This document shows positions 1,857 to 28,551 of a stretch of DNA of 64,000 nt, one piece after another. The DNA lies in contig OZ237756.1 in NCBI GenBank assembly GCA_965178125.1, positions 372,001-436,000 on the forward strand, in the 5' to 3' direction. The notes under the pieces were generated by a model. It saw only the letters and a program-made list of their open reading frames with translations, had not been told where the DNA came from and searched no databases. The translations under genes and the position numbers were made by a program. Each line of letters opens with the position of its first letter. The stretch's first letter is position 1. This DNA comes from Bilabrum cf. latius. Lineage: Eukaryota.

Positions 1857-4445
1857 TCACAACCCAAGGAAATACGCGTGCCCCCCAGCGTTCTGAATCG
1901 GGGTGGCAACGGGCGAAGCCAGCGCCCACTCGTACCACGTCTTGGTGGCGCTGCTGCACCGCCACAGGTGCACCTCCACCAGCTCGCCCTTCTTGACAGG
2001 GACGGGCCGCCGAAACGGAAAGTAGATGGGAAACCAGCTGTACATCTGAGGACTGTGCGTCTCTGGCTTGATGCTGCAGAGCACATCCCGGAACAGCCGA
2101 GCCTCGAAGTACCCCGCAAACCCGTGCATGGACGCAGAGGCAGATGCACGGAACTGCAGCGCAGTGTACCGGTCGTTGGCCAGCTCCCCGGGACGCGTCC
2201 TGTTGGGATGCACAAACCGGAAGCACGGCTGGCTCCCCGCCAAAGGCGCAAAGTTGTGGAGCCTCGCAACGTACGCCGTGTCATACCCCTTCAGCTCGTC
2301 TTCGTTCTGGCCCTTGACCGCATTCCAGAGCTTGGAGCTGGTGATGGGCGCGGCAAAACTGGTGTACTCGTAGGGTATGGATATGCCCCCCGGCTTCAGG
2401 AACCTCTGCGCGCCGTCTAGGCACTCCGGGCTCAGCTCGTTGTCCCCGAAGCTGCCCAGGAGCTCGCTCACAAGGATGTCGGCTTGCTCGGGTGCCTTCC
2501 ACGTCCGCATGTCGTGGTTCACAATCGTCACACGGTCGCCCCACCCCTCCGTGAGTGCCCGCCCCCTCAGGGTCACAACCGCGTTCGGGTTCTTCTCCAC
2601 TGCATACACCTTCACGTCCCTGCCCGTCTCGTCTGCCGCCCGAAGTGCCCTGTGCACCAGAGGTCCCCTGCCCGCGCCAACCACCATGAGGACAGTCCGC
2701 TAATCCTCGGGCGTTTCTTTGAGCGCCCCAACCATGGCCTGTAGGTACAGCCTGTACTTGACCGGGTCCTGCTCGAAGGTCTCGTAGGTGCCGCTCTCAA
2801 GGTTATCCATGAGCGGCTGAAGGGGCGCCTGCAGGTAGTCGTAGTACGGGATCTCGTATTCGTCCTTGTCCGTTGGATCCGGCAGGTCGCTGCACAGCGC
2901 GTGGATGGAATTCACGTACGCGATATGCCCGTGCCTGTGCCGCGCAGGCCCCTCCAGAATGAACTGCGCGCCCTGGAGGTACACCCTCTTTGCGAATGCG
3001 GCGTGTTCCCTGGGCAGGACGGGCAGGCCCGTGCGGGATTCCATGGAAAACAACGAAGTATGGATGGCCATGGCCTTGACCGGCTCCCCGATCCAGCGGT
3101 CCAGTTGTTCCCTGGGAGGCAGTTCCTTGGTCAGCTCGAGGAAGGCGCTCACGTGGGGGTTCGAATCGCAGAGGGTCCGGAGGCCGTCCCACACCCGCCA
3201 GGGGTGCTCCACGTCCTCGGGAGATGGCACGCCCGCGGGTGTGACGAGTGCGTCGGTGCTCGCGCCTGCGGCGCCCCCTGTGGCCGCACCGCCATGCGAT
3301 GCACCCTCGGTCAGCTCGCTCAGCGACATGCTCTTGGAGCCCGCCGTGAGGTGCCTTGCCGGCGGAACCTGAGGCGGCGCCGCACAAAGACCGACACTCT
3401 CGGCCTCGGCCTTGGCAGCCGCAACTGGCGTGGAACTGGGAGCGCCATCAACTCCTCCCGAGGTGCCCGCACCGGATGCGGCTCCGGCTCCGGTGACCGC
3501 ATAGCTTACAGCACCCATCCCCTCCTCACCACTCAACGACCCCAATGCGGGGAATTCCCCCGAGGGGATCACCCCCCAGCTGGGGTGCCCCTGCGCGTCC
3601 TCGATCGCGTCCCCCAGCCCCGCAGTCCCCTCCCTCACCCTCAGCAGCAACGAGGATTCGGAGCCGCGGGCCAGGGAGCAAGCGGCAGCAGCGCCAGAGT
3701 TTGCAGCAGGAGCTGCATCCAACCCATCTGCTGCCCCCTTGCCGCCATCACCATCCATGGGCGCTGCGCCGCTCCCGCTTCCGCTGCGGCCCGCCGCTCC
3801 CGCCACAGCAGGGACAGCAGGGACGGCGGGAACGGCGGGCGGACTCACAGCATCCGGGGAGGGGGCACCAGCACCAGCTGCGGCGCCAGCGCTCGCAGTG
3901 GCAGATGCGGGAGTGGTACTGACGGAGGCAAGTGACGCCGCTGCTGCAGGAGAGGAGGCCTGAAGCAGCAGGGCGTCGGCGGCACCGGTGCGCCTGACGA
4001 GCGGTACGCGGATCCAGAAATGCAGGTACGATTGCCCTTGCACGACCTGGTTGATACACCTGGCCAGGTTGTGATACCTATCTCCTGGCAATGGGGCCAC
4101 AACGGCGGTGACGCCGAGATGAGAGGCCCACGCTGCTTCCTGCTTGAACGCCTTCACCCCGGCTTCCCTGACATCTGGCGATGATGCGTCCACGTCGATC
4201 CAATCGGACATTTTGCCGACTACGCTCGAGTTCCAAGTATCCCCCTTCATAATCATGTCAGATCGAGTAGCCGGCGTCTGCCGAGCATCTGACATTCCGG
4301 CGGCATCTCGCCTTGAGCGCGGATGGAACAAGGGAGCAAGCACATAGTCAAAGTCCTCCTCGCTGCCGACCGCTTGTCGCATGTCTCCCACCAAATCAGT
4401 GGTATGGGGAAGATCTTTACCAACCATGACCCTGGGCCACGACAT
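1857..4445 (-). CDS. PRMT5: Protein arginine N-methyltransferase 5
   Basis: Motifs [65 protein letters not shown] and SWFPIYFP. ORFs 2700..4484 and 1857..2687 are in frame across one TAG (2700-2702). Ends TGA. Start could be 4445 or 4484. Confidence 0.95.
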
Positions 4446-4735
4446 GGCAATGTATGGCTTGGTGAATTGGGGTGCTATTTGCATCCTGCCATTTCAGCAG
4501 AACCCTGTGGAACCTTCGCCGCCCAGGAACACACCAAGGCTTGGTGACCAAGCGTGCCATCATAATCACAAGATCTCTATCCAAACAATCAATTTCAGTC
4601 TTCCATGCAAAGTAGTCCAGAGCGACGCGCGCTTCCATACAGCCTCTCCGCCCGCACGCTGTGGCAACACAGGCCCCAGCACGCGACACACGGCGAAACT
4701 TGAAGTGCTCCCCGCCACCGCTATGCTCCTCCTCC

Positions 4736-6445
4736 TCACTCATCGGTGGCCTGCCTCACCCTCTTCAGAGGTCGATCCACCTTCACCGACTGCGTGAACG
4801 GGTCGTACTTGGCATTGAAGCCCTTCCTCAGATTCTCGCAATACCGCCTCATCCTGACCTTGACGTCGTCGAAATCTTCCGCCACAAAGTATACGGGCTG
4901 GTAGGTAGTGATGGGATAGTCCGTCCCGGCCACGTCGGCGGGCACCCACGGCCTGTACTCGGGCACATCGTCCGTGCCTCCCGCCGGTCGTGTGGGCGAG
5001 CACGCGTACTCGAGTTCTCCAAAGGAACTGAGCAGGCCGGCACCATAAGCTTTCTTCTCCCCGTTCTCGTTGCAGAGACCGAATTCGACGCTGAACCAGT
5101 AGCAAGTGGCCAGTTTCTTGATCTCGTCATCGCTAGCGCCCAGCGAGGCAAGCCCGATCTCCTGGGAGAACTCGGCGAAATCAGGGTCGGCGAACAGGGG
5201 CACGTGGCCTAGCAGCTCGTGGCAGATGTCCGGCTCGGGCGTGTACAAGGGCTTCGTGTGGTGCCGGATGTACTACGTGGAGAAGAACACCCTGAACGCG
5301 AGTGCGTTGAGGAAGTCCCTTGCCGATAGGAGTCCGCTGACAGGACGCAGGGAGAACCCGGTGCAGCCCTGAAGGAACTGGGAGATGTCCTCCAGCTGGG
5401 GGATGGACCTCTCCCCGTACCCGCAATTTCTCTCCAGCAGCGGCATGATTTCTTTGTACTGCTTCACCGCGTACTTGTCCGTCTGCGCCCTCAGCTTGTT
5501 CCAGACGGTAGCCCATGTCTCGACCTCTTCTTCCGTGTATTCCACCCGTGGAATGGGTGTACCATGCCTGTATGTGAGCGCATTATGCACAATGAGCTTG
5601 CGGCGTTCTCTGTACACAGCGTCGGAAAAGCCGGGGTGGTCCGCCTCCAGGTCTTCGCCCGCGTCCAGCGTCTTTGTGCTGAACTTGTCAATGTCCTGGA
5701 CGCGTGTGGGGAACCACGGTACCTCCAATGGGGGCTGTGCGTCCACAGTGAGAGCCTGGGCGTTGAGTTCCCTGATGAGATCGTCGAGTCCCTGCACCGA
5801 TTTCCCGTCGAAGGACACCTCGAAGTCGAAGTTCGGGTCCATCCCCTTGGAGGGCTTGCTCTCGATGTACGTGAGGTTCACGCCGCGGTCCTCGAATATG
5901 CCCAGCAAGCGACGGAGCTCGCCGGGCCTGTCGCGAATGGTCAACTATAACGAGGTGTGACCGGCATCCAGCTGCGAGCAAGAGAAACGTAAGGCTGTGA
6001 ATGCGACAAGATCGATAATCGCGTGAACTCGTCGTGCTTGGCGTGGACTAGAATCGACACGCGAGTCTTACGTCCAATGATTCTCGCTGCCCACCAGAAG
6101 ACACTGACTGCTTCACTTTCTTGTGCCCAGTCACGTGCCCTTCAGCTGTCTGCGAGCAATGATACTAGCGAATGCCACACAGTTGGCCATGATCAATTCT
6201 AGCTCGAGCATACTTGCATGCCACACAGCGTATCCATGCATTTGAGAGCATGGATCGTTGCATTCAATACCACAAATTGATAGAATAGACCAAAATCAGC
6301 ACTGACTAGGTAAAGATGCGAGCAGCTAGGTGCAACAGGAAACCAATCTCACCGAGAGCTAGCGGATACCCACGAAGCGAAAGTTACGAGCTGCACATGA
6401 TCCAATGACCTGTCGCAGGCCCCTTAACTGTCTTAACCCTCGCAT
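4736..6445 (-). CDS. PAH: Phenylalanine-4-hydroxylase (ACT domain plus biopterin-dependent catalytic domain); exons 6445-6353, 6149-6072, 5971-4736
   Basis: Motifs [36 protein letters not shown](TAG)[29 protein letters not shown] and [13 protein letters not shown]. In-frame TAGs at 6359-6361, 5945-5947 and 5273-5275. Ends TGA. The two 5' exons are inferred from frame-preserving GT-AG sites. Confidence 0.92.
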
Positions 6446-9828: not shown

Positions 9829-12132
9829 TCACTATCTCCCGTCCCGAATCACCTCTGCGTCAACCACCTCGGCCCCTCCGCTCGTAGCAGCAGCATCCCC
9901 TCCCGCCGCACCAAAGTCCTCCTCGGGCCCCGCCGCCGTGCGGTCCGCAATCACGTGCGCCTGCATCATCGGCTCCCCCTGCCCCACCGATCCCCCACCC
10001 TCCTGCTCCTCCCCCTCACGAGCGAACATCCCCTGCCCCTCCTGGTCCATCTTCTCCAACTCAGAGGCGAGGTGCACCAGCGCCTCCACAGTCCCCTGCT
10101 CCCGTAGAAGCCTGCTGGGCGGTGTGACGAGTGCCTGGGCCCGGCCCCCGGCCCCCGCGGCGCCCTCCGCCCACAGCCTTGCCACGAACGGAGGCAGGGG
10201 CGCGGCGAGTGTAAGGAACGTGGGCGAAAGCACCTTGTGCTCAAGTATCTCAGCGTCGATTCCCTCCTCCGCCGCTGGACCTCTCCTGCCCTGCTCCATC
10301 GCAAACTGAACGGCTCTCCTGTACTCCAGGTGCAGGCCCACGTGCCGCAGTGCAGTGCGCCTGTGCAGGTGAAGCGCCACGTGCACCGCGGCCCGGACCA
10401 GCCGGCAGAAGTCCGCGGAGGACTGCCGCATGGATTTCGATTGCGGGTCCTATTCGTCCATGGCGATCTGCTCGGGGTCCAGGCCCAGGCTCCGGAGCTG
10501 CATCTCCAGCTCTTCGAGCGGCTCCCCCTTGGCCCTGGCCTCGGCTACCATGCCCGCCGTGCTGTCCGCGGCGATGATCTGCTCGAGGAGGCCCAGGACC
10601 ACGGGGTCGTTGGCGGAGTGCGTGATGATCGAATTGGCGGCGTGCCGGGCCACCTCAAAATGATGCCTCTTCCTAGCAGTGGCGGGATCCGAACCCAGGA
10701 GCTCCTCGGGCAGCTCAGGCCGCTGCACGATGTGCTTGGGCAGGAGCAGCTCCGGGCTGGGCATGCTGACCTGCGGGAGCTGCGCCTCGGCCTTGGCAGG
10801 GTCCACCTTGGCGGTGGCCTCGAGTTCACGAACCTTCGCTAGCGCGTCCGCCTGTCTCCTCGCAGCGTCTGGGTCCACCGCTTCCCCGTACTCGTCCTGG
10901 AAATCGAGCCATTTCGAAGCGATGAGGCACACCTTTCGGACGGGGGAAGGGTCCCCCGTCGCGTAGAAATTGGCCCACAGAGCGTCCACGGTGTCGCACG
11001 ACACCTGGGCCGCGGCGACCTCCCAGTCAAGGGGGGAGAGAACCTTCTCCCGGGTTCCTTCATCATGCTCCTCAGCATCCCCCTCAGGTAACCCCGTCTC
11101 CTTGGCTGCTTGTTCCCTGGGCTGCTCCCCTGCCAACTCAGCCAACGCGCTCTCCCGCAGTGCCACTGCCATGGACACGTGGAAGGCACTCCTGGCCCAA
11201 GGCGGATTGTCCGTCTGTCTCGCACCCTGGTAGAATGCACGCTCCTCGTCCCCCCCCAGTATGGGGACGGGCCACGAGAGGGGGTCCATGGGGAATCGGT
11301 CCCCTTCGCTCTCCGGGACGATGCACCTGATCCTCCTCTCGAACGCCTCCACCACCGTGGCAGTCGTCCCCTCCTCCCCGGCCTCCGCTGCTGCCCTCGC
11401 TCTCGTGAGCAGGTCGTCCGCCAGCTTCGTGCCCACGTCCTCCATGCCCGCAGCACCGGCCTCTTCGGCCTGGAGCACGACGAAGAGCAGCCCCTCCCTC
11501 CTCTCCGCTGTGGCATCGGGGCTGGCCACGTGTGCGGCGCGCTCCACCAGCTCGCTCATCGATCGCATGATGGCCATGATGAAGTCCTCGCTGTCGGAGG
11601 TCGCCGCGATGGCCTGGCCGAAGAAAACAGCCTGCTCCATCTGCGAGGACCCGGTGAAGCCATCGGGCGACTGGAGCAGGTGCGCGAATGCCGGCAGGAT
11701 TAGGTCCGGCCTGGGCAGCGTGTGGAAATGGTGCATCCAGGCCGCGACTGGGCTGTACCCTGCATCTCGCGTAGCTTTGGCATACGGTCTGTACAGCGAC
11801 TCGAATTCTCCCAGGCGCTCGTGGATACCGCGAAGGGTGGGATCAAAGGGAGCATCCGCATTCGACCCGGCCGAATCTCCCTCATCGCCGGAACCCGAAG
11901 CCTTGGGGCCGCCAGACCCCCGAGCACCTCGCGATTTTGACGATTTGCTGCTGCGCTGCCGCGCTAAGCTCCGTGTGCTAACGTGGAGTGCGCGCGAGCA
12001 GCCAAAGTTGCCGCTGGGAACTACGCCAAATGGCCGCGCGGCAGCGCGGCCCGCCAGGCTAGACCGGGCGGTCTGGAGACAGCTTCTAGCGGTACGCTTG
12101 ATTGATTGTACAGATGACACCCGCAAAGACAT
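9829..12132 (-). CDS. Hypothetical protein with a mitochondrial-presequence-like N-terminus
   Basis: N-terminus MSLRVSSVQSIKRTARSCLQTARSS is Arg/Ser-rich with no acidic residues. ORFs 10450..12255 and 9832..10431 join across TAG 10450-10452. Ends TAG-TGA (9832-9834, 9829-9831). Confidence 0.7.
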
Positions 12133-12230
12133 GATTTGATTATTCTGGCTGTGCTCGAAAGCACAACTAGTCACGGAGCTGTGACGAGCAATACACGTCG
12201 GTGCGTGTATTGGCCATTCAAGTGCACAAT

Positions 12231-14021
12231 ATGAGTTTGATACCATTACAGGCATGTATGATTAGTATTCTACTTGTGCTGAGTTCGTATGCGTAGCAGC
12301 TTGCGCAGGAAACCGATGGATTGGGGGTGTTTGTGCACGGATTCTAGCTCTCGCCGAGCCTTGCTAACCAGCGTGTGACTCATGAGGTGTCTGTAGCATT
12401 CGCCAGTTAGGAGAGCATATTAATCAACCCTCTCGCTGACGAGTTTAGCGTGTTCGGGGAATGGCCGCGACGATACAAGGGCGGTGCCGTGTTTGTTCGG
12501 TACACGTGTTCGCAATCGGTGCCAGACATCGCCAAGGCTGTCCGACAAAAACTTAGCGACTTGCTAGAGCTTAGGAAAGATGATTTGCACGTGCAATCTA
12601 AGCATACGCAGCTCGTGCATCGTCCTCGGAATGCGATCGTCTACGACGTGCATGCTCACTCTATGGGCGGGCTCATGGCTACGATCGCTCTTACAGGCAA
12701 AGGAGACGAAACAAAACCAGGTGCGTCCCGCCGAGGTTCCAAGCTCCCACTGCCTAGGGCAGCCTTTTTTTACGATGTCCCGTGGGCGGGGCTCACGCCC
12801 ACACTCCGCATGGCAGTGGACGGACTAGCCAGCATGGCAAAGGAGGCCGCGGAGGAGCAGCAGGAACTGGAGCAGCTGCACGTCGGCGCAGGAGATGGTA
12901 CACCAGATCGCGAATTATCTACCGAAGCGGATGTCGACGGGAGCAGCAGCCGCAAGAAACAAAAGAAACAAAAGAAGAAAAAGAAGAAGAAGCGAGCGTC
13001 CGGGGGGCTCGCGGGCGGCCTCATGAAATCACTCGGTCTCGAGGGCCTCCTACAAACCGGAACTGGTGTCCTAGGGGACAGCGACGGATCGTCTGCCGGT
13101 GATGCCGGCCCCGCTTTGATCCGTCGCACGATCGCGGGTCACCTCCCGTTCGTAGATGCCGTTGCCCGACCCACCTTCGGGTGGTCCAAGGACCTCGTGC
13201 AGGAAGCTGAGCAGATGCTTCACGAACGTTCGTTGGAAGGTACCGAAGGTTCCTGGGGTTTCCTTCTGCGGGAGGGTGGTGGCAGGTCAGTGACAGACGC
13301 GGCCCAGGTCGGCCTGAGACGTCTCTCGAAGGCGAGCAAGGTGGTGTGCTTCGAGTTCCAGACGCACGCCAGGCAGCAGCAGGGGCAGGGGCAGGGACAG
13401 GGGCGTAAAGGGCATGGGCCGGGTGGTGGTGGGCGGGGACTGGGGCTAGGCGGGCCCATGGGGATGGGCGGAGGGGGCGGGGAACTTGGTGACTTGATGC
13501 AGCTTGCTGCCGCGATGGGAGGTGGCGGGGCCGGTGCCGGTGGTGGGGGCGGGCTTGGAGCCATGCTCGGGCAACTGGCTGAGCTGGACGGGAGCATGGG
13601 CGGCGGTGTGACGAGTGTATCGGAGGGTGGGGAGAATGGTGGCCTCGCGCCTGCTTTGCTGAGCATGCTGGAACATTCCTTCGACTCGATGGACGCGATT
13701 GGTCGCAAGCGGCTGCAGTCCAGGGGAGTACGTTTCCTGGAACTTGCCGGGAAACGCGCAGGAAAGGGACGGACGGGGGTGGACGAAGAGGAGCAGGAGG
13801 AGGAGGAAGCACTTGCTCGCGACGTTGGTCGCAAGGGCGGGCTCGGGGCCCTTGAGCACGCGGTGGCCCACGTCACAGCCATCAAAAAGCATGACGCGGA
13901 GCTTTGGCATGCGGTGCTTGCGACTGTGGGTGCGCATGGAGCTGGTAGCGGTGACGGTCGCGCGGATGGGAGTGGTGGTCAGTACACTGGCCCAGGAAGC
14001 CTGGGCTCTGAGGAGCTGTGA
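12231..14021 (+). CDS. Secretory-pathway alpha/beta-hydrolase-like protein
   Basis: With TAG=Gln the ORF extends upstream to ATG 12231 (MSLIPLQACMISILLVLSSYAQQ, signal peptide). Contains VFVHGF (oxyanion-type motif), AHSMGG (nucleophile elbow) and a C-terminal SEEL (KDEL-like). Three TAGs in the 5' part. Ends TGA. Confidence 0.7.
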
Positions 14022-15635: not shown

Positions 15636-16832
15636 ATGAATCGAATTCAAGGTGCAACGCGACCGTTTGTTCGTTTAGTACTATGTCGTCACGGTCAGAG
15701 CGCTAACAATGTCTTGATGAGGGAGGGTGTTGAACAGTATGCAAAAGGACGTCTTGCAGATCCTCCTCTGACACCTTTAGGCCATGCGTAGGCGTATGCA
15801 GCTGGCTTAGAGACATCATAGTTAATAAACAAATTTGCTGAGACTTTGCATAAAGTGTGGGTGTCACCTATGAAGCGAACGGTGCAAACAGCTGCTGGAA
15901 TTGCTGCAGGATGCGGTGCATCGTCACCGCTGCCATTCGAGATCCGAGCTGATATCTTCGAGCGCGGGGGTATATTCGTTCGTGAGGGATCTGACTAGCT
16001 AGAGTCGATTCAAGGCTAGCACGAACATGAAGGCAGGATGCCTCGGCTGGAGCTGGACAGCGCGTCGATCAAGCAGCTGCTTCCGGGGGCGCGCATCCCA
16101 CGCGGGACTGTCACGAGCCAGGGTTGGAGCCCAACCGCGCCGAGCTACCAGCGAGAAACCGGCTAGCAAACGTTGAATATAGTAGCTGGTGTGGCCGAGT
16201 CGTTGTGGGAGGAAGCGGAGAAATGGAACGCAGAAGCGCCCGCGTCCACAGGAACCAGCAACAGCCCCGGACCGTAGTCGGATGACCTGGCGGATTCTGG
16301 CTCCGGGTTATTTCTGGATCCCCTGCCGGCCGTCGAGGCAGCTCCGATGAGTCCTGGCAGCATGCGGCAGCTGATGCTGGTGTGTCACGCCGACTTTATC
16401 GACTTGCTGGTGCGGTTCCTCACCGGCGGGGAGTCTGCCGCGAAAGCGCACGTGGATACGGCAGCGGACGGGGAAGAGGTGGTCCCCGATGCACCTGGTG
16501 TAACGAGTGATAGTGAGACCATTAATGGTGTGACGTTTGGGTGCGACAGGCCGCCGGTGCGACCGCCGGCGAGGAGCCATTTCCTGTCCTACAACTGCGC
16601 CTGGACGACCGTTGACTTGTTCCCTGGGCGGGCCGTGCGAGTGGTGCACGCAAATCGCACGCAGCATTTGGTTCGTCGCGCCGACGTGGTGCGACTGCTC
16701 CTGCAGCAAGGGCGTCTGCCGCTGCCAGTGTGCGAGGGGATGGAGGACGGGGCACGGCGGGACTTGCTTGACGCCAGCGAGCAGGATCCCGACGCGTGGC
16801 TGCTATCCGGTTGTGCGGAGGGCCTGGAATGA
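15636..16832 (+). CDS. Histidine phosphatase / phosphoglycerate mutase family protein
   Basis: Motifs LVLCRHGQSANN, DPPLTPLGHA(TAG)A, VWVSPMKRTVQTA and LVCHADFI. One 399-codon frame with six TAGs (15789, 15819, 15996, 16017, 16164, 16275) and no internal TAA/TGA. Ends TGA. Confidence 0.88.
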
Positions 16833-17022
16833 ATATACACGGATTGATCGCCGGGAGGTACACGTAGCACAGTGTCGTTTCGGCGAGTTGGTCGCAATCG
16901 AAGGATGAAGATGGATAACAGGATCGGACAGCAAGAATGCTGGGATTCCATTCAGTACGTCTGAACACAATTAATACGATACTACTACCCAAGCCAAGTG
17001 CATCTATTTTAGTACTAGTAAC

Positions 17023-17791
17023 ATGGATGATTCGTGTGGGTCCGGGCGTGCTGGTGTTGCGACCCAAGCGCGCGTTCTTGCCTTCAACATGTGGAAAGCA
17101 CCAGGCGCGGAGTGCGAGCACCTCAAGTGTTTGATGCCACCTGCGGTCCATCAAGCATTGCATCAGTTTAACCACTAGCCTCTGGTTGTGATTCAGGTGC
17201 AAGGTCCTGGGCGGGGAGGGAAGAGCAGCCTGCTGAACCTGTTGGCCGGGTGGATAACAAGGTGCGCGGGCTTGTCAGCCCCCGAATCGGTTGCTTTGTG
17301 GGACGATCTGCGGAGGTCGATCCCGTATGAGCACATCCAATGTGATTGTGAAGGAGTATGGCATCCCGAACAGGTGTGGTCAAAAACAATGGAGGGCGCA
17401 AAGGTTCTGAATGTGTTTAATGTCTCGCACTCCTCAGATCCGTGCACCCAGGGTGCCGAAGGCTGCTTTATATATCTTCCAGCCGGTACTTTCGGCCGCA
17501 GTGACCCTTTTTCTGTCTTACTGATCGACTGTGAGGGTACGGGGGACAAGTCCAAGGAATACCACAGCAAGGTGATGCTTCCCGGGCTGGTATTCACGAG
17601 CGCCGGCGCTGCCATCGTGCGCACTTCCAACGCTGGGCTCGTGAACGACGCGCTGGACCAGCTGGGCCACCTTGCCGAAGCAGCAAGGGTGTACCAGGTG
17701 GGAATCAAGAGAATGAGCAAATCCACTGGTGGTGCAGCGGGTGCGGTTGCGGGAGCCACTGCCGCCGCTGGGTCCTCTCCCCCTGCACCAC

Positions 17792-17825
<34 letters not shown>

Positions 17826-20004
17826 GGGTGCTGCGTGTGGAGGAGCATCGAGCGGGTCAAGTCATCCACGGGGAGCCGCTGCCCCGGACACCAAACTGGG
17901 CGGGGCCATTCTCCTCTGCAATGACTACAGCCTGGATCTTGACGAGGGGCAGACCACGGAGGGGCAAGAAAGGGCCGTGTTCTGCAAGGAGCCCGAGCCC
18001 GAGGGTGACGGCGACTTGGATACAGATGACGAGGCAGCGGCCAGGAAATAGATCCGCAGCCGAAACCGCAAGAGACGGCTCCTCGATGGCGCATTCAGGC
18101 ACAAATTTCGATGCACCACGGGGCCCCCGGGGCACGGCTCTCTCCGCCCATGCCCGTGCACCGGGCTGCTTCGGGACCTCAAGGGCATCGCGAGCAGAGT
18201 GCTGCTTCCTATCTTGCAGGACAATACGCCGCGCTGCCTGTTCGGCCGCCCCGACCTGCCCCTGACCGTGGGCACTTTTCTGGACATGCTTCCCTCCGTT
18301 GTGGAGGTTGCAACCACCCAGGACCTGGACGTGCCCACGCTCCTCGAGACTGCGGTGGGCCGGGGTCTCAAATCCGTCAAGGCGTCGGCCGATGCAGCCG
18401 TGGCACGCGTGAATGCGGCGTGCGACGCATTCGTCAGCGAGAAGCTATTCGTATCGCGGCAGGTGGTGGACACGTGCAAGCAGGCCATGGAGCGAGAGGT
18501 AGACCGGGCTGTGCTCGCTGCCTCGGACAGGGCCCCCTTGTGCAAAGGCAGGCCCGAGATCGAAGACATCCGTGCAGGGGCGAAGAAGGACCTCGTGGGT
18601 GCGTGCACTGCACTGCAAGGGTATCTCGAGGGAACATCCTCGTCCGCGGGCGAGATGGCCTGGCTCATGGTGCAGTGCATTGCAAGCGAGGTGCCCCTCC
18701 CAGCCCAGGAATCCGCGAGGCAGCTCAAACAGGCGCTCGAGGTCGAGGTGGCGCGCCTCCCAGCTGATCTGCAGCACTCCCCAGTCGACGATAGCGCGCT
18801 GTCTGAGGCAAGAACGGCCCTGGGGCGCGTCCTGGCCGACATCAAGCGCGAGCAGCAGCGAATGTTCCGCCCGGAGTCCAGCCGAGGCCCCGCTGCTTCG
18901 TCTTCAGCCATGCCCGAGGAGGACGAGGATGCGGAAGAGCCCAGCAGGACGGTTCGGCAGGGGATGGCAGATGATCTCAGGTCCAGGGTGCGGGATGCAC
19001 TGCGCGGAGCCATGCACGTGAGAGTATCAGAAGAGGAGCAGACCAGGCAATAGAGTGCGATGTCGGGTTTTCAGGCGATGCTCGAAGCTGCAGCGGACGT
19101 ACGGGATGAAGGGCATGCCCAGAGTGGTACAGCTGCAGGGGCTGGGGCTGGGGCAGGATCGGCCTCTCCATTTGCCGGTGATTTTGGGGACCCGACGACT
19201 GCTGGTAGCAGCGGCCCCGCCTCTGGTGCCGGCGCTTATGCTTCGGAGGAGGGGGCCAGTGCTGCAGGGCGCAGCTCGGGTGATGAACCATCGCAAGGCG
19301 AGCGTGCGTCTGGGATCGAGCTAGCTGGGCTAGAGGACACTCTGCGCGCTTGTTTCAGGCAGGTGATGCTCTCCCACCCGCTGCGACCACCTTCGGTGGA
19401 GCAGGTGCTTGCGGATGTTGGGCTCCGTGAAACCGGCGAAGTATTTGCGGTGGTAGCAAGACTGCCTGGCGTGATGCAGGGGCTTGGGGGGGCCGTAACG
19501 TCTCGCGGTGCGACGCTGAGCGGCATCCTAACTCAGAGGGAACGCCTACTCGCCGCTGAGCTATCGAGGCTCGAGCAGCAGGCTAACAAGGTCTCGTGGG
19601 ACGTGCAGTGGGAGCAGGCGCGCAGGAAGCACGAAGCGGATTTGGCGAGCGACAAAGAGCAAAACGCCAAGCTTGCTGCTGAGCTGAAGGCGATCGAGGA
19701 GAAGAGACAGAAGGAGGCCCAAGAGAGCAGGGATCAGCTTAGACGGGCGCGAGAGGAAGCTAGTAAACATCGAAGTGCAGCTGCCTCGTAGCACACAAAG
19801 CTCCTCAACCAGATGAAGCAGATCGCGGCAATGGCCAAAGGGACGGCAGGCAGCGACTCTGGCGGCTCTGGCAGCGCGTGGCGGCACGTTCCTGGGGCCC
19901 TGAAGGCGTTTGCCGAAGTAGTCAGCGCTTACAAAGGGATGGCCAAGGCGGGTAAAAGGGACACGGGAAAGGAAAACGACCAAGGAGGGAGCAAGGGCAA
20001 GTAA
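17023..20004 (+). CDS. Guanylate-binding protein/atlastin-like large GTPase with helical coiled-coil C-terminus
   Basis: P-loop VIQVQGPGRGGKSSLLNLL, TQG-like G2 region and LLIDCEG (DxEG). Four track ORFs join in frame over TAGs at 17176, 18049, 19051 and 19789. First non-TAG stop is TAA 20002-20004. Confidence 0.75.
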
Positions 20005-20504
20005 GGTTACGGGTATACTTTGTGGTTACAATCATGGTGGGGCCACCTACCTACTCTCAGTCGACAGTTGCGCCCACCACGCACACTGCGTGACTTTCGC
20101 AATTGTGAAGCCCGCCAGGTGATGCTGGCTGTGTATCGCTTCTTTTGGTGTGGTATCTTGTCTTGCTTTGGTGAGTTTGAACTCGATGAAACCGTTCTTA
20201 GGATCGCCCCCCCGTGTGTATACGGGTATACCCCGTATCCGGGATCTGCTAGCATCCATACTACCCGCATCCACGTCGCCCCCTGGTATAGAAGCCTTCT
20301 GAGCAGAGTCCCAGTGCTGGCAGCTCTACTTCAGTCACTGTAGGTGTCCTTGCGCCCTCTGGTGTTCTGTGCTTGGAATCAGTCTGACCGCAGTGCGTCC
20401 TGTACATCCCCAGTGGATGGTGCATCGAATGGAGCTCGAAGGGATCAACATCGCCACTAGGTACGGTGCAAACATTCAGCTTGCGGCCTCTTTCCCACTC
20501 GAAA

Positions 20505-22760
20505 TTATGCAGCACCAAGCAACATCTCCCGCCTGCCCCTCTCCCACAACGCCCCACCCCACCACACGCTCACACTGATACTACCCGACAAAGATTCCAC
20601 ATAGTGCCAGTACCCAGGGGGAATATACAGCGCATCGCCCGCCTCTAGAGCAACCTCCTGAGCATGCTTCACGCTCTTCTGAAACGACTCGGCATCGGGG
20701 GATACGTGGATCGAGTTACGCAGCATCATTGGGATACCGCTGTCTCTGCTACTGCCTGCCATTCCAGCCGGTTCAGACGCAGCCAAAGCACCTGTCCCTG
20801 CACCTGCATTTGCACCTGCTCCTGCGCCTGCCTTTGCCGAGGTCACCGACCCTGGGTCTGGGCCTGGGCGTGCCTCTACTGCAGCCTGCATTAGCTCAGC
20901 CGTGTGTTTCGGAGCCAGCAGCACCACTCGTTTTCTGCCGTCAACTTGGCACAGCCAGTTGTGCTAGGGATCGTGGTGGAAGCAGCTCCGTGTTCCCCGA
21001 GGACCGATCCACGCCAGCAGGGTGGGCGGACCGCCGGGATCCACTACTGTTTCTTCTTCTTCTTCTTCACTGCTGGACGCTCGGTCTGGATCGGTGCCGA
21101 CGTTACTGGAGTCGGGATCCGATGGTTCTGGTCTTGGCTGTTCAACTTCGGCTTTGCCATGGGACTTGGATGTACCAGCCCTGTCGCTCGTTTCAGTATC
21201 CGATTCTTTGACTAGCTGACTTGCATCTAATGTATGCTATGTGGCAGCGGGTGCAGTGTTCTAGGCTGCATCCGACCCACCAACCGGTGCTTCACACCTC
21301 CCCACACTCCCAGAAGTGTCAGGGAAATATCGCGGAAAATATCCCGAGGCGGGCGGGGCACAGTCAACGCTGGTGCAATCCGGAATGATGATGTCGCCTC
21401 TTAGGTCTGGACAGTGGTCAAACAGATGGTACTGAGCCATGTATGCCACAGCCGCAACTGGTCTCGGCCTAGGTGCACCTCCCCGTGAGGATCGCGATGG
21501 GTGTGACGAGTGCATTGACATGGCCTCCCGGATGGCTTCCAGATCGAGGGAGCGCATGAGCGGCAGCACTGGGCTCCCGATCGGGATCGGGCACGGTGTG
21601 ACGAGTGGGCCCGTCTTCCGCGCGGTGGCGTGTTCCGTGCCTTGCGATGCTGTGCCCGTGCCTGAACCAGCTGATGACGAAGAAAAGGAAGAAGAGGAGG
21701 ATGACTGCAACCAAAATTGCCTAAAATTTGATGAAACTGCATCCCCCGCCGTGCATCGCGCCGCCTTGGCGTCGCGGGCCGCCTGAGGACCGGCTCGAGC
21801 ACCTGCTCCAATTGGTGCCGGTGAGCGAGCAGCAAGCCCCATTGCCTGTGCATCTCCTGCCGCCTTTGATCCGCTGCTTGCTTCCTCTACATCAGTTTCG
21901 GACTTTCCGTCCCATGAAACACAATCGCTGGCGGTGGAAGCGGTGGGCGGGGAGGGCAGTGCCGGTGCAGTGCGGCGCCGTTTGGCAGGAGGGGGCAGAT
22001 GCAGGGGAGTGCGAGACTGGTGAGGCTGCCTGCTGTCCCGCAGCACCGCAGTGGAATGCATGGCGCGCACAGAGACACTCGACTCTCTATCTGCACGGGG
22101 GCACTGGTTCCGAGGAGCGCCCGGGTCACGATCGATGTAGTCGAGGAGCACGTCCGCCGGGACGATGGCTTGCGACCAACTATCCGACAGGTAGTGCTCC
22201 CCGAGCTCGACAGGGAGATGAACGCCACTCAAGCGGGAATACAGTCCGGTTCTACCATGCTTGCCGCGCCATGACCGCGCAGGGGCATCAGATCTGCTAC
22301 TGCTGCTGCTGCTTTTCGATGTGGCTCCATGGTCGCCCGCACCGAATGCCGGCCATGACCTTAATGCATCCCTCACCACAGCAGGTTTCCCTAACCGCAT
22401 ATGGTTGCATAAAAATGATGGGATTGATGGCCACGCTTCATATTCCACTACGCTGCCTGATTGAATGGCGCACCGCATCCCTTGCTCGGCAGCACGACAG
22501 GCCCGAATCGAAGCAAGCCGCCTGCTGGCGTCGACTTGCCATGCAGCGGGGTCGCGGACATGAATACGCTAGCCTGTTAGTATGGCTGTGCAGTCGCGAA
22601 GCAATAATGCCGATTGTGGATCCCCTGAGGAGGCAAACTCATTGGCACTAGCTTGTGCAACCGCGGCATATTGTAGCCGCAAGGCTCCTTTTTCCCTGGA
22701 ATCAAGACACGCAGAGTGCAAACTAGTATTGATGCGCTAGAGTTGCGCTAAATCAGTCAT
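20505..22760 (-). CDS. JmjC-domain 2OG/Fe oxygenase, JMJD5/KDM8-like
   Basis: Motifs KPAVVRDALRSWPA, LPVELGEHY, YMAQYHLFDHCPDLRGDI, AWIGPRGTRSCFHHDP(TAG)HNWLCQVDGRK and GDALYIPPGYWHYVESL. Single frame with TAGs at 22737, 22569, 21261, 21237 and 20964. Ends TAA 20505-20507. Confidence 0.88.
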
Positions 22761-22855
22761 GAATATCCATATTTAGTTCTCACCGCCCCGTCGAAGGAAA
22801 ATGAAAGGCCAAGGAAGGTTCGTCACGGTTCGTTCCAGCGAGCCCAGCCTGCCGC

Positions 22856-24277
22856 TCAAACGGCACTGTCTCCACGAGCTTCCCCCTGCAACGGCGCGAT
22901 TTCCACCCCTCGAACCCCTTCCCGTTCCTCCCCCAAATCACCGCCAGCCCTAGACCTCGCCACGCCATTCTAAGACTCCTTGCCCTCACCACCGGGACCG
23001 GGACCGGGACCAGCCCCAGCCCCAACCTCGGCCACGGCCCCAGTACCAGCATCAACGCTATCACGCTATCTCTCAGCTTGGCCCAGCGGAGCCACAGCAG
23101 CAGCAGCAGCAGCAGCAGCAGTAGCAGCAGAAGCACCCGCACCCGCGCCTGCTCCCTTGTCCTTACCTTCACCCTCACCCTCACCGTCCTCACTCGTCAC
23201 ACTACCGGCGTGCATCCTGGAGTACTCGCCCACAAACGCGCCCCCCAGCACCAGGCAGCACCCTACCACACGAAGGGCACTGGGGGACTCGGAATCGTTA
23301 CCGAAGGCCCCCACGGCGTCCAGCACCAGAGACACGAACACCTGCCCTGTGACGATCGCGAGGAACATGCTGCTCACGCTGATGAACTCTGGCAGCACGA
23401 TCGCCGACACGACAAAGAACACCCCGGCCGAGCCCCCGACCCACGCCCACCAGGGGGCATCCCCCGCACCGCTGCCGCTGAAATCGGGGCCCTCCGTGCC
23501 CAGCCCCACCCCGAGCGCCCCCAAACCGGAAGCAGCCAGGCCGGTCGCAAAACTGAGCATGGCGCCTTGTTCCGGTCCCCTGAGCGCACCCGCCGCGGAT
23601 CGGTTCACGGCCGACTAAACCGGGAGCCCCGCCCCCGCCAGCACCGCCACCAGCAGCCCCCCAATGAGCCCCCCCAGCTCGGACCCAGCGGACCCAAGTG
23701 CCTCCGCCGACGCCATCACCACTCCGGCAACGGCAAGAAGCATTGAGAAACCGCGCATGTACGTGAATGGTCGCATCGGTAGTCCCAAGAAGGCAAAGTG
23801 GTCCACGAGGGCGGCCGAGACGAGCTGGCCGAGCACGAGGCCGACGAAGAACAGAGCGAAGCCCACCACTGGGGCGACAAACACGGCAGAGCCGACGAAG
23901 AAAGCACCGAAAAGCCCTCCTGTGCACTCGTACCACTATAATGCGCGCCTAAAGATTAAAGGGTCGCTGGCAGTCGTTTGTTCCCCCTTCCGATCCGTTG
24001 AAACATCCTGCTCGGCCCCATCGTCTGCGATACTACGCTCATTCTCTGGGCTTGATTCGCTTGGTGCGTAGTAAATCCGATAAATCATTGCAGAAATATT
24101 CATGATCAGAAGTATCAGATTGGCTCCTGTGAAACTAGTCAGTATCCCATACATTTCATGGCCGAGCGCTTCTCCTGCGGTTGCGTTCACGCCTGCCTGC
24201 ACCGCAGCTGTGCCCCCAACCGCAAGTGCATCAATCAGACATATTACAACAATGATCCATGGTGTAGTGGATTCCAT
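22856..24277 (-). CDS. DMT-superfamily transporter, YdcZ/DUF606-like, two internal repeats
   Basis: Repeat 1: GGTAAVQAGVN...WYECTGGLFGA...GQLVSAALVDHF. Repeat 2: GAGLPV(TAG)SAVN...PWWAWVGGSAG...GQVFVSLVLDAVG. TAGs at 23936, 23615, 23066 and 22970. Ends TGA 22856-22858. Confidence 0.85.
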
Positions 24278-24444
24278 AGAGGTCGTCCAGAATGGGAGAC
24301 GTGGCAAGTTGTAGTTTGCGCAGCGAACCTTCCTTCAATGGATTGAGGAAGATTTCCGACGTGAGGCTGACCAGCAGCGCCACCACACATTCGAGCCGCA
24401 AAGTACTGGTACCTTCTACTCCAGTCAAGCAAGCAACGGCACCC

Positions 24445-25802
24445 TCACTCCCGCGCTTTCACGACGTGCGACCACCCCGGTTTCTCCACCCTACCGTACT
24501 AGATATCCGTGATCGCCGTCCAGAACCTCTGAGTGAGCGGTCCGGCCCCCTCCTCCTCCCCCACCGGGTGCTTGGGTTCAATCGTCACATCTCCAGAGGC
24601 GATCGATTTCACGGGGCTTACGACAGTGGCCGTTCCGCACCCGAAGCACTCCAGCAGTCTACCCCCCTCATGTGCCCGCTCCAGCTCACCCATGGTAATC
24701 TTCCTCTCGCTCACCTCGAATTCGCCCCACTCCTTCCCCAGCTCAATCACGCTGTCCCTCGTCACACCCGGCAGGATGGTCCCATCCTCGAGAGGGGCAG
24801 TGACCAGCTCCCTGCAGGTCCCGTCCTCCTTCTCCATGTAGGCGAAGAAATTCATCGTGCCCACCTCGGTCACCTCCCCCCCGTCCTCGTCCCCGAGCAC
24901 CCACAGGACCTGGGTGTAGCCGTGCGACGCTGCGAGGACCGACGGCTGCACTGTGGGCCCGTAATTGGCACCCAGCTTGCTGTTCCCTGTGCCACCCGGC
25001 CATGCCCTCACGTACTTGCGCTCTGCTACCAGGCTCACCGGCTTGAATCCCTCCGGGTAGTAGGGGCCCACCGGCGCCGCAATGCAGTACACCTTGACGC
25101 TGGAGCTCGGCCCGAGCCCGAGGAAAGGGTGGGTGGAGATCGCCGTGGGCCTGAGGTAGAGAGAGAAACCATCGCCCTCAGGGATCCATTCCTAATCAGT
25201 GAGCACGAACTGCTCGATGCACCGAAGCAGCTGCTCCTTGTCAAAGGGCGGGAACTGGAGGCGAGCGCACGAATTCTAGAATCGATCCATGTTCTTCATC
25301 GGGCGGAAGAGACGGACATTACCGTCCTAATTACGGTACGCTTTCATTCCTTCGAAACATTCCAGCGCGTAATGCAGCACGCTAGCCGCGGGGTGCATCT
25401 CGAAATTTCCCATCGGCGAGATTTTGGGAGTGGCCCAGCCTTTCTCAGCATCCCAGTCTATCTCGAGCATGTGATCGCTAAACGTGGTACCAAACGTTAG
25501 CTTATCATTTTCAAGTTTGTTGCCAGGCGTCGGGTTTGGCTTCACAACGAGCTAAGATGCCTGCGCAAGTGCCGATGCAAAGAGCTAGAAACTGTGACGC
25601 AAGTGCGTTTGAACTAAAGCAGAAATTACAAGCTTTCGCGATGATCAATCACAATCTTATGATTTACTAATTAAACCGTTCCGCGCTCCTAACGAGCCAG
25701 AAAACTGTCTCTTACATCAATCATAGACGCGGAAGAACTTGAGATCCACCGGTTGGATCCGATTACACGATGCGCACGCGAGCGAATGCATGCCAGCTAC
25801 AT
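24445..25802 (-). CDS. BCAT: Branched-chain amino acid aminotransferase, probably mitochondrial; exons 25802-25716, 25560-24445
   Basis: Motifs FGTTFSDHML, VLHYALECFEGMKAY, RLFRP, SLYLRPT, RAWPGGTGNSKLGANY, EVGTMNFF, ILPGVTRDS, ECFGCGTA and DI(TAG)YG. Presequence MQLACIRSRAHR starts ATG TAG. Six TAGs. Ends TGA. Confidence 0.95.
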
Positions 25803-25969
25803 ACGCCGTAACATTATAATAGATAATAATAACGCAACAGCGATTTGAGTGCAGCGGGTTGTTTCGAATACCCATAACCGGAACCATGCAGCTGACGTGA
25901 CGGAATGCCAGTGACATCGTAATGGCATTATTGCCATTGAAAGAAAGCTTCATTCCTTATCTTACTAGA

Positions 25970-27545: not shown

Positions 27546-28399
27546 GCTGGTTCTCCAAGTGCAGTCAGAGAATGTAATCAGTACCTGTATAAGCCACCAG
27601 GTCACAATAAAAGCTGTAGCAAGGCTACCCTGACAAAGTACAGAATAATAAGCCAGCGCGTGACGAGAGTGAGAACCACTCACGGAACCATGCCTGCCAG
27701 TGGATAAAGCTGAATGCCTGCAAAGTTGAAGCGACTCGGAGGTAGTAATTCTTCGTGTCGGTATGCTTTCCAACAGCCTCAGCTCGTGCTCAATTGCACC
27801 GCCACACCGCTCGCCCCAGCCCTCTCCACAAGCCCGTCTCCACCGAGCCTGTTGGCCAACTCGTCCGATGCGGCTCCCACGTCGTCATCAAGCCCAGCCA
27901 CACCGCAACTCTGCAGTGCAATGCACTCCAAGAAGCACTCCCGCTGGTCACCTCCATCGCCCCTCTCGTCATCAGCACCCCCATTACCCTTGCTGTTGCC
28001 ATTCGTGCCCCCTCCAGACCATGGAGTGCCTTGGGTGCTTCCCCTTGCTGTTGCCGTTCGCGCCCCCTCAAGACCATGGAGTGCTTCGGACCCAAAAAGA
28101 CGGCAATCACAGGGGCAGGGACAGGCGTAGGGGCAGAGACAGGTGTAGTGGCAAGCATAGGCCTCTATCCCTGCCTCCCGTAGCCTGTGCCCAGGGACAG
28201 GAGCTGGGTGCCTGCCTCACCATCAAAGCCAGATGCAGTAGCTGCGGTGGCCTGCCCGCAGGAACTGCTGCCGGAGGGATGGAGGGCAGACATGGGCACT
28301 CGAAGGAGGGTGATGTGCGAGCGTGCTGCTGCGAACATGAAGAGAGTGAAGCCCACGGAATCGTTCATTTCATCTGCGGGACATAAGCTTGTCTCCGGT

Positions 28400-28551
28400 G
28401 GGTGCAGTGCAGTGCAGTGCAGGGAGGCACGGCGGAGAGCCCGGTCTACCTGCGGCTGTCGGACGCGTGGGTGCAGTGCAGGGAGGCACGGCGGAGAGCC
28501 CGGTCTACCTGCGGCTGTCGGACGGGTGGGTGCAGTGCAGGGAAGCACGGT
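28400..28551. repeat. 59-bp minisatellite, about 2.5 units
   Basis: Unit gggtgcagtgcagggaggcacggcggagagcccggtctacctgcggctgtcggacgggt. Confidence 0.9.

What the first reader, a model, noticed from the sequence alone, without database searches (positions are those of the whole stretch)
17023..22760. UAG appears uncoupled from UAA: TAA never internal and appears to terminate genes
Seen: no in-frame TAA in any intact gene model, although CAA is used freely. The convergent GBP-like and JmjC genes first stop at TAA (20002-20004 and 20505-20507); all other complete genes end in TGA and none needs TAG as a stop (9829 ends TAG-TGA). Established: UAA and UAG are almost always reassigned together in nuclear codes (table 6). 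UAG-only Gln (table 15-like) is rare, reported in the fornicate Iotanema spirale and a few ciliates. Inference: this GC-rich, intron-containing genome does not look ciliate-like and may be an independent origin, needing an eRF1 that reads UAA/UGA but not UAG. The evidence for TAA as a stop rests on only two gene ends.
Basis: partly seen in the sequence, partly recalled or inferred. Interest (0 to 1): 0.88.

Follow-up and report, generated by a model that had tools for sequence, protein, structure and literature searches.

The report
UAG reads glutamine; UAA still stops
This GC-rich protist DNA reads the stop codon UAG as glutamine while apparently keeping UAA and UGA as stops, a rare split of two codons that nearly always change meaning together.

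Summary
In 20 gene models (13,205 codons) there are 60 in-frame TAG, 0 TAA and 0 TGA. Outside the coding frame TAA is common: 37 and 54 in the two other frames.

TAG lies at conserved glutamine columns in BCAT (116 of 119 homologues), a PAH-like hydroxylase and the JMJD5-like gene. It is kept unchanged in spliced, RNA-like contigs.

With about 25% A-ending codon use, roughly 20 TAA would be expected if TAA also meant Gln. The chance of seeing none is about 2e-8.

Eighteen models end in TGA and two in TAA, the convergent GBP-like and JMJD5-like genes.
- **GBP-like gene:** the TAA is a convincing terminator. Coding signal and GC content drop there. Read-through would add 218 non-coding-like codons overlapping the opposite gene. 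An RNA-like contig crosses the gtaagg unspliced.
- **JMJD5-like gene:** the TAA is only compatible with termination, because a TGA follows 19 sense codons later.

tRNAs, eRF1 and genome-wide counts could not be examined because no genome is held. A single-gene PRMT5 tree puts the organism among stramenopiles, not ciliates or fornicates.

Verdict: a probable new, independent case of the known UAG-only-to-Gln code.

The parts
17023..20004 (+). GBP-like gene: a single ORF from ATG 17023 to TAA 20002-20004, with in-frame TAG at 17176, 18049, 19051 and 19789
   Evidence: Pfam GBP N-domain hit is weak (E 4e-4, 20.0 bits, below the 21.1 cut-off). Codon positions verified. RNA-like contigs cover 16960-17773 and 17837-22764.
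20002..20004 (+). TAA that ends the GBP-like ORF; the best-supported TAA terminator
   Evidence: Codon score is +0.189 per codon in the last 218 CDS codons and -0.092 in the 218 codons after the TAA. GC is 0.624 in the CDS and 0.542 downstream. Read-through to TGA 20659 would overlap the JmjC CDS.
20001..20006 (+). gtaagg, a donor-like hexamer overlapping the TAA
   Evidence: It resembles the real donors GTAAGA, GTGAGC and GTATGT. X5 contig record 14 is colinear across it and no joint is listed there. All 7 hypothetical acceptors give non-coding-like tails.
20005..20504 (.). 500-base stretch between the two convergent stops; presumed overlapping or abutting 3' UTRs
   Evidence: GC 0.542. Covered by the RNA-like contig. 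For comparison, the convergent pair at 9447-9828 has 382 bases between stops and a poly(A) end after 9653, 207 bases past its TGA.
20505..22760 (-). JMJD5/KDM8-like JmjC (Cupin_8) gene from ATG 22760 to TAA 20505-20507, with in-frame TAG at 22739, 22571, 21263, 21239 and 20966 (top coordinates)
   Evidence: Pfam Cupin_8 3.7e-31. PDB JMJD5 7.7e-17. The TAG at 20964-20966 aligns with Q of human JMJD5 'HQDPQQN'. Human JMJD5 ends 1 residue after the WW; the window runs 17 residues further to the TAA.
20505..20507 (-). TAA that ends the JmjC ORF; compatible with termination but not discriminating
   Evidence: The next in-frame TGA comes after 19 further sense codons.
24445..25560 (-). Exon 2 of a branched-chain aminotransferase, ending in TGA, with five in-frame TAG; control gene for TAG = Gln
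   Evidence: PDB BCAT1 1.8e-105. The TAG at 24499-24501 falls in a column that is Q in 116 of 119 homologues and Q in a 94%-identical relative. Intron 25561-25715 is skipped in X5, X6 and X7 but not in DNA run X1.
4736..6067 (-). PAH-like aromatic amino-acid hydroxylase ORF, ending in TGA, with two in-frame TAG; control gene
   Evidence: Pfam Biopterin_H 4e-148. The TAG at 5273-5275 aligns with Q of 'TQYIRH' in all 3 PAH alignments shown. The TAA just upstream of the ORF lies in a GTAAGA donor-like site.
1857..4493 (-). PRMT5 gene: 878 codons, one TAG, no TAA, TGA stop; control gene and lineage marker
   Evidence: Three PRMT5 Pfam domains, matched to profile position 166 of 167. Trees.
9829..9834 (-). 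TAG-TGA tandem at the end of the 810-codon gene 9832-12261
   Evidence: This is the only gene end where TAG could still be acting as a stop.

Best explanation
The window is nuclear DNA of a GC-rich protist, probably a stramenopile near bicosoecids. Its genetic code reads UAG as glutamine, while UAA and UGA remain stop codons (NCBI table 15-like).

Shown here: UAG is translated and corresponds to Gln; UAA and UGA are excluded from coding frames; genes end in TGA (18 of 20) or TAA (2 of 20).

Inferred from established knowledge of such codes (Panek et al. 2017, PMC5304391, passages read):
- A tRNA-Gln with anticodon CUA, one mutation away from tRNA-Gln(CUG), decodes UAG. C34 cannot pair with the A of UAA, so UAA stays unread.
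- An eRF1 with weakened recognition of UAG still releases at UAA and UGA.

The strong preference for TGA over TAA at gene ends is best explained by the genome's GC bias.
For: TAG is a sense codon:
- 60 in-frame TAG in 20 models, about 77% of the off-frame density.
- 5 TAG lie inside BCAT exon 2, which X5 record 15 covers as spliced RNA-like contig with 0 other letters.

TAG means Gln:
- BCAT column is Q in 116 of 119 homologues.
- PAH 'TQYIRH' is Q in all 3 alignments shown.
- JMJD5 'DPQQN' is Q in both alignments shown.
- A 94%-identical relative has Q at the BCAT site.
- TAG exchanges with CAG at 3 paralogue columns.

TAA is not a sense codon:
- 0 of 13,205 codons, against 37 and 54 in the other two frames.
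- 14 TGA-to-TGA ORFs (9,397 codons, 45 TAG) hold no TAA.
- A-ending share is 0.26-0.28 for Gln, Glu and Lys, so 0.75^61 = 2.4e-8.
- TAAs next to ORFs sit in introns or leaders.

TAA is a stop:
- The GBP-like ORF ends at TAA with a drop in codon score (+0.189 to -0.092) and in GC (0.624 to 0.542).
- The 218-codon extension is rich in W, C and F and overlaps the JmjC CDS.
- The RNA-like contig is colinear across gtaagg.
- The JMJD5-like ORF ends at TAA 17 residues after the point where human JMJD5 ends.

TGA is a stop: 0 in frame, and 18 gene ends.
Against: - Only two TAA gene ends exist. The JmjC one is followed by TGA 19 sense codons later, so it does not discriminate.
- No poly(A) end was seen for either gene. 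The loose-end table was truncated (157 rows not shown), and contigs are unstranded.
- The tool labels X5 'RNA? (probably DNA)'. I treat it as RNA-like because of the GT..AG skips and one A24 tail.
- The C-terminal half of the GBP-like protein has no homologues (0 hits), so its C-terminus cannot be confirmed by comparison.
- The TAA:TGA ratio of 2:18 is unlike exLh (UAA 56, UGA 15) and I. spirale, where the paper calls UAA the dominant stop in both taxa. It looks superficially like a TGA-only genome.
- At 4 of 5 BCAT TAG columns, and at the PRMT5 one, Gln is a minority residue.
- 5 of 12 paralogue TAG columns pair TAG with non-Gln codons.
- There is no tRNA gene in the window and no eRF1, and everything rests on 64 kb.
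Confidence: 0.75

Rival explanations
1. Both UAA and UAG are reassigned to Gln (table 6-like) and TGA is the only stop. TAA would be missing from these genes only because the GC-rich genome avoids A-ending codons. The two TAA 'ends' would then be an unrecognised 3' intron (GBP-like gene) and a 19-codon longer protein (JmjC gene).
For: - 18 of 20 models end in TGA.
- The JmjC frame reaches TGA 19 sense codons after its TAA.
- gtaagg at 20001 matches real donor sites.
- UAA and UAG nearly always change meaning together (PMC11687900, passages read).
Against: - A-ending synonymous codons are used at 26-28%, so about 20 TAA would be expected beside 60 TAG. None is seen, P about 2e-8.
- The RNA-like contig is unspliced across 20001.
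- All 7 candidate acceptors give non-coding-like tails.
- The unspliced extension has a negative codon score and overlaps the opposite CDS.
Confidence: 0.08
2. TAA is neither a regular sense codon nor a regular stop. It would be unassigned or strongly avoided, or context-dependent as UAA is in Blastocrithidia. Under this view the two TAA ends say little.
For: TAA is rare at gene ends (2 of 20), and only one end is discriminating.
Against: - An unassigned codon should not sit exactly where coding signal, GC content and the room left before the opposite gene all end.
- There is no in-frame TAA at all to suggest dual use.
Confidence: 0.08
3. UAG is ambiguous: Gln inside genes but still a terminator at some gene ends.
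For: The gene 9832-12261 ends TAG-TGA. A tool-less reading cannot tell which of the two codons terminates.
Against: - No model needs TAG as its stop.
- BCAT has a TAG 17 codons before its TGA, and the homologues align through to that end.
- This rival does not conflict with the split between UAG and UAA.
Confidence: 0.06
4. The in-frame TAGs are not translated. They would be pseudogene lesions, assembly errors, or sites edited in the RNA.
For: Some paralogue copies pair TAG with TGG, TGT or TTG, as decaying copies would.
Against: - TAG occurs in 18 of 20 models, including single-copy PRMT5, PAH-like, BCAT and JMJD5-like genes that have full-length domain matches.
- DNA run X1 and the RNA-like runs X5-X7 show no other letters at these genes.
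- TAA and TGA never occur in frame, which random decay would not spare.
Confidence: 0.02

Closest known systems
Iotanema spirale (Fornicata) nuclear code: UAG = Gln, UAA and UGA stop (Panek et al. 2017, PMC5304391; passages read)
   Same: UAG alone is reassigned, and to glutamine. UAA is retained as a stop. It is a non-ciliate protist. The predicted mechanism is the same: tRNA-Gln(CUA) plus an altered eRF1.
   Different: - The paper calls UAA the dominant stop in both of its taxa; here TGA dominates 18:2.
- This genome is about 60% GC.
- Its PRMT5 groups with stramenopiles, not metamonads.
- The eRF1 T32G change reported for I. spirale could not be checked here.
Ciliates with UAG-only to Gln: Protocruzia tuzeti and two phyllopharyngean lineages (McGowan et al. 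2024, PMC11687900; discussion passages read)
   Same: The same code table.
   Different: - This window is a 64-kb stretch with a retroelement, minisatellites and a segmental duplication.
- No ciliate name is among the 120 listed rows of either homologue search.
- The comparison of genome style with ciliates rests on my own knowledge, not on a call.
Rhizarian exLh (UAG = Leu) and Scotinosphaera (UAG = Ser), both with UAA kept as a stop (PMC5304391; PMC11687900)
   Same: UAG is split from UAA in a nuclear genome.
   Different: The amino acid differs. Here the conserved columns point to Gln.
Table 6 codes (UAA and UAG = Gln: many ciliates, ulvophytes, Hexamita, Streblomastix, Amoeboaphelidium; listed in PMC11687900)
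   Same: UAG = Gln and TGA is the main stop.
   Different: TAA is never in frame here: 0 of 13,205 codons.
Amoebophrya sp. ex Karlodinium veneficum, an ambiguous code using all three stop codons (PMC12005148; passages read)
   Same: Neither is a ciliate, and both carry in-frame stop codons.
   Different: That genome is AT-rich. Its in-frame stops are 58% UAA, 32.3% UAG and 9.7% UGA. Here only TAG is in frame.

Membership tests
UAG-only to Gln nuclear code (NCBI table 15-like) | In-frame UAG inside conserved genes, aligned with Gln | tested here: met
   BCAT column Q in 116 of 119. PAH-like Q in all 3 alignments shown. JMJD5 Q in both alignments shown. The other TAG columns are variable, with Q in a minority.
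UAG-only to Gln nuclear code (NCBI table 15-like) | UAG is present in the mature mRNA, neither spliced out nor edited | tested here: met
   The spliced BCAT contig of X5 (24340-25559 plus 25715-25836) has 0 other letters. Caveat: the tool only guesses that X5-X7 are RNA.
UAG-only to Gln nuclear code (NCBI table 15-like) | UAA absent from coding frames | tested here: met
   0 of 13,205 codons against 37 and 54 off frame. P about 2e-8 under shared meaning.
UAG-only to Gln nuclear code (NCBI table 15-like) | UAA used as a terminator | tested here: inconclusive
   Two of 20 gene ends. The GBP-like end is well supported. The JmjC end does not discriminate. No poly(A) site or orthologue C-terminus is available.
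UAG-only to Gln nuclear code (NCBI table 15-like) | UGA is a stop, not a sense codon | tested here: met
   0 in frame and 18 gene ends. The C-termini of PRMT5 and BCAT match those of homologues.
UAG-only to Gln nuclear code (NCBI table 15-like) | UAG no longer used as a terminator | tested here: inconclusive
   No model needs it, but one gene ends TAG-TGA.
UAG-only to Gln nuclear code (NCBI table 15-like) | tRNA-Gln(CUA) present and tRNA-Gln(UUA) absent | not testable with these tools
   No tRNA in the window and no genome held.
UAG-only to Gln nuclear code (NCBI table 15-like) | eRF1 N-domain altered at the GTS, NIKS or YxCxxxF motifs | not testable with these tools
   eRF1 is not in the window and no genome is held.
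Table 6 code (UAA and UAG = Gln) | In-frame UAA at Gln columns | tested here: not met
   No in-frame TAA in any model.
Ambiguous codes with no dedicated stop (Condylostoma, Blastocrithidia, Amoebophrya Kv) | In-frame UGA and/or UAA as well as UAG | tested here: not met
   0 TGA and 0 TAA in frame.

The most novel reading that the evidence does not exclude
This may be the first nuclear stop-codon reassignment in a stramenopile, a bicosoecid-like heterotroph. It would be a further independent origin of UAG = Gln with UAA retained. It would also be the first in a GC-rich genome where UGA rather than UAA is the main terminator. That would show the UAG/UAA split can arise without an AT-rich, UAA-dominated background. 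None of five full-text searches returned a paper reporting a nuclear code change in a stramenopile; I judged this from titles and abstract openings of the listed rows only.
Probability: 0.45. Interest if true: 0.75.

Novelty: new member of a known kind. Interest (0 to 1): 0.62.

Why it matters
UAA and UAG almost always share a meaning. This is thought to follow from wobble decoding by U34 tRNAs and from eRF1 reading both codons with the same elements. Each independent lineage that splits them is therefore a natural experiment on how eRF1 can lose UAG recognition while keeping UAA.

The passages read list few such lineages: Iotanema, Protocruzia, two phyllopharyngean groups, a rhizarian, Scotinosphaera and one oligohymenophorean.

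A case in a GC-rich non-ciliate would matter in three ways:
- It would widen the taxonomic sample.
- It would offer an eRF1 and a tRNA-Gln(CUA) to compare with the others.
- It is a practical warning. Standard-code gene callers cut this organism's proteins at TAG. This may be why its close relative appears in the protein database as a 215-residue fragment of a protein of about 375 residues.

Tried and rejected

- No whole genome is held for the window. Genome-wide TAA counts, tRNA-Gln anticodons and eRF1 could therefore not be examined.
- ARAGORN found no tRNA and Rfam found no family in the window.
That step was dropped. The atlas was not used for lineage, which its description discourages.

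**Searches for relatives**
- The metagenome scan with BCAT returned 4 loci of 42-64% identity and no close relative. They were not used further.
- The genome-contig scan with the LRR-like protein gave 21 pattern matches, none confirmed.
- The C-terminal half of the GBP-like protein had no hit among 8,000 scored candidates of 554-1,766 residues. It also had no hit among 1.84 billion representatives. Its C-terminus therefore cannot be checked by comparison.
- The BCAT tree left the lineage unresolved. The window groups with two unnamed proteins (support 100) in a mostly unnamed group.

**Sequencing runs**
- The look-up of sequencing runs listed no holder on record as RNA.
- Three runs marked 'RNA?' behaved like RNA when laid.
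- No poly(A) end for the GBP-like or JmjC gene appeared among the rows shown, and 157 loose-end rows were not shown.

**Other checks**
- Pfam on ten further small ORFs gave 0 families.
- One apparent in-frame TAA, at 56025-56027 on the - strand between ORFs 56028-56333 and 55077-56024, was examined. It separates two partial copies of the same motif next to retroelement debris. I read it as a decayed repeat, not a gene.
- The simple codon-usage scan was too noisy to find further genes.
- Amoebophrya sp. Kv was considered as the source and rejected. It is AT-rich and its in-frame stops are mostly UAA.
- Supplementary tables of the code papers were not opened.

Full report
**What the window is**

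The 64-kb window is 55-64% GC and carries eukaryotic nuclear genes. These include:
- PRMT5
- a PAH-like aromatic amino-acid hydroxylase with an ACT domain
- a histidine-phosphatase protein
- a weak GBP-like GTPase
- a Cupin_8/JmjC protein
- a YdcZ-type transporter
- a branched-chain aminotransferase (BCAT)
- Mis12
- a reverse transcriptase

It also holds two lineage-specific paralogue families.

These frames are open only if TAG is read through. Total ORF length of at least 200 codons rises from 24,783 to 40,693 codons when TAG is made a sense codon.

Everything below therefore rests on the window, on public runs laid on part of it, and on database homologues.

**The observation**

I built 20 gene models totalling 13,205 codons.
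- They contain 60 in-frame TAG, no TAA and no TGA.
- Eighteen end in TGA and two in TAA.
- With the five LRR-like copies and the two large paralogues counted once each, this is 13 TGA and 2 TAA among 15 independent gene ends.

The absence of TAA could be circular, because I first delimited ORFs by TAA and TGA. I therefore re-delimited every model by TGA alone.
- Fourteen of 19 models do not change. They are TGA-to-TGA frames with no TAA inside (9,397 codons, 45 TAG).
- In the other five, the only added TAAs are one just upstream of the ORF in all five and the terminal TAA of GBP and JmjC. The upstream ones lie before the first ATG or in an intron.
- Two such flanking TAAs lie in sequences that look like introns: a GTAAGA site upstream of the hydroxylase ORF and the span 7219-7343 upstream of the 7503 gene.

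In the two non-coding frames of the same stretches, TAA occurs 37 and 54 times, TAG 80 and 78, and TGA 245 and 275 (19 models, 61 in-frame TAG). In-frame TAG therefore sits near its background density, while TAA and TGA are completely excluded.

**TAG is translated, and as glutamine**
- A TAG in BCAT falls in a column that is Q in 116 of 119 homologues, and Q in a 94%-identical relative.
- A TAG in the hydroxylase aligns with the Q of 'TQYIRH' in all three PAH alignments shown.
- A TAG in the JmjC gene aligns with a Q of 'HQDPQQN' in both human JMJD5 alignments shown.
- The remaining four BCAT TAGs and the single PRMT5 TAG fall in variable polar columns where Q is a minority residue.
- Among 12 paralogue columns that contain TAG, three pair it with CAG, four hold only TAG, and five pair it with non-Gln codons. 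Some of those copies may be decaying.

Three public runs that the tool marks 'RNA?' behave as RNA.
- They skip a 155-base GT..AG intron of BCAT that the DNA run X1 does not skip.
- Two further GT..AG skips appear.
- One contig ends in A24 after 9653, which is 207 bases past the TGA of a + strand gene.
- The spliced BCAT contig carries its TAG codons with no base differences. RNA editing and assembly error are therefore unlikely.

**TAA is not a second glutamine codon**

A-ending codons make up 26% of Gln codons, 27% of Glu and 28% of Lys. If TAA shared TAG's meaning, about 20 TAA would be expected beside 60 TAG. The probability of seeing none is about 2e-8. GC bias alone therefore cannot explain the gap.

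**TAA as a terminator**

This is the weaker leg of the argument.

*GBP-like gene*
- The frame runs 218 codons past the TAA to TGA 20659.
- That extension is rich in W, C and F.
- Its codon score is -0.092 per codon, against +0.189 for the last 218 CDS codons.
- Its GC is lower, 0.542 against 0.624.
- It would overlap the CDS of the convergent JmjC gene.

The alternative is that gtaagg at 20001 is a splice donor. This is plausible on sequence, since real donors here are GTAAGA, GTGAGC and GTATGT. Against it:
- A 4,966-base RNA-like contig of run X5 runs colinear from 17837 to 22764, and no joint is listed there.
- Each of seven candidate acceptors gives a non-coding-like tail.

Contigs drop rare isoforms and are unstranded, so this evidence is supportive rather than decisive.

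*JmjC gene*
- The TAA lies 17 residues after the point where human JMJD5 ends.
- A TGA follows after 19 further sense codons, so both readings fit.

*Spacing.* The 500 bases between the two stops are in line with the 382 bases between another convergent pair, whose one mapped 3' UTR is 207 bases long.

**Lineage**

BCAT has unnamed relatives at 70%, 76% and 94-95% identity. Named hits are at most 58% identical: one dinoflagellate-labelled record, then oomycetes. Its tree does not resolve placement.

The best named PRMT5 hits are stramenopiles (Nannochloropsis 57%, brown algae, oomycetes, Cafeteria). One plant-labelled record, which aligns over only 70% of the query, ranks above them. A FastTree of 56 sequences I selected from the 120 hits, plus the window, gives two results:
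- The window groups with Cafeteria and two unnamed proteins (SH-like support 0.955).
- That group sits inside a stramenopile clade (0.947).

This is a single-gene result on a hand-picked set, so it is a lead only. No ciliate or fornicate name appears among the 120 listed rows of either search.

**Comparison with what is known**

According to the passages I read (PMC11687900; PMC5304391), UAG-only reassignment is known as follows:
- to Gln in Iotanema spirale, Protocruzia tuzeti and two phyllopharyngean ciliate lineages
- to Leu in an uncultured rhizarian and in ciliates
- to Ser in Scotinosphaera

The present case fits that kind. It differs in its probable lineage, its GC-rich genome and its dominance of TGA over TAA at gene ends.

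Five full-text searches returned no paper reporting a nuclear code change in a stramenopile. I judged this from titles and abstract openings of the listed rows only, and did not open supplements.

**Verdict**

I rate this a probable new member of a known, rare kind of code. My confidence in the full statement (UAG = Gln; UAA and UGA stop) is about 0.75. The main residual doubt is whether TAA is a regular terminator genome-wide.

Noticed in passing
25904-33765 and 42811-52020: A segmental duplication of 82-96% identity. It carries an LRR-like ORF of about 485 codons and a 1,268/1,330-codon ORF with no significant Pfam match (one sub-threshold DUF3420 hit, E 0.0085, on the 1,330-codon copy). By eye the large ORF has subtilase-like DTG, HGT and GTS motifs; that reading is from my own recall, not from a call. 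There are five LRR-like copies in the window (25973, 40511, 42881, 52328, 57656). Depth in DNA run X1 is 5-10 times higher over 25984-27251 than elsewhere, so the family is probably multi-copy genome-wide.
   Followed up: partly
45313-46498, 59835-60546, 28412-28554; also 37040-37769 and 36078-37004: Minisatellites. A 59-base unit appears at three places (20, 12 and 2.4 copies, 96-97% matches). There is also a 39-base unit (18.7 copies) and a 113-base unit (8.1 copies). These arrays keep all six frames open, so they imitate long ORFs.
   Followed up: no
61092-63998 (-); 54076-55026 against 60852-61802: A reverse-transcriptase ORF (RVT_1, 9e-18) runs off the end of the window. A 951-base inverted copy of its 3' part, 99.7% identical, lies 6 kb away, which points to a recently active retroelement. 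Next to it, 55000-56420 (-) holds two partial copies of one motif separated by a TAA.
   Followed up: partly
9829-9834 (-): The 810-codon gene of unknown family ends TAG-TGA. This could be a former TAG stop now read through by one codon, or a remaining TAG terminator.
   Followed up: no
20508-22772 (-): The JMJD5-like gene has an atypical codon score of 0.009 per codon, against 0.08-0.23 for the other models. Its GC3 is also low at 0.56. It carries long low-complexity inserts between the two halves of the cupin fold.
   Followed up: no
window 16000-25900, as held in public runs: The locus is held by RNA-like runs filed under two organism codes that differ from the code of the DNA runs (shares 0.90, 0.58 and 0.41). 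The organism may live with other organisms, or it may be filed under several labels. I did not pursue this.
   Followed up: no
6066-6200 (-) and 6979-7527 (+): The hydroxylase ORF has no ATG before the start of its ACT domain and is preceded by a GTAAGA donor-like site, so at least one upstream exon is missing from my model. The 7503 gene appears to have two upstream exons (about 7054-7218 and 7344-7497) with GTGAGA donors. No RNA was laid on this region.
   Followed up: partly
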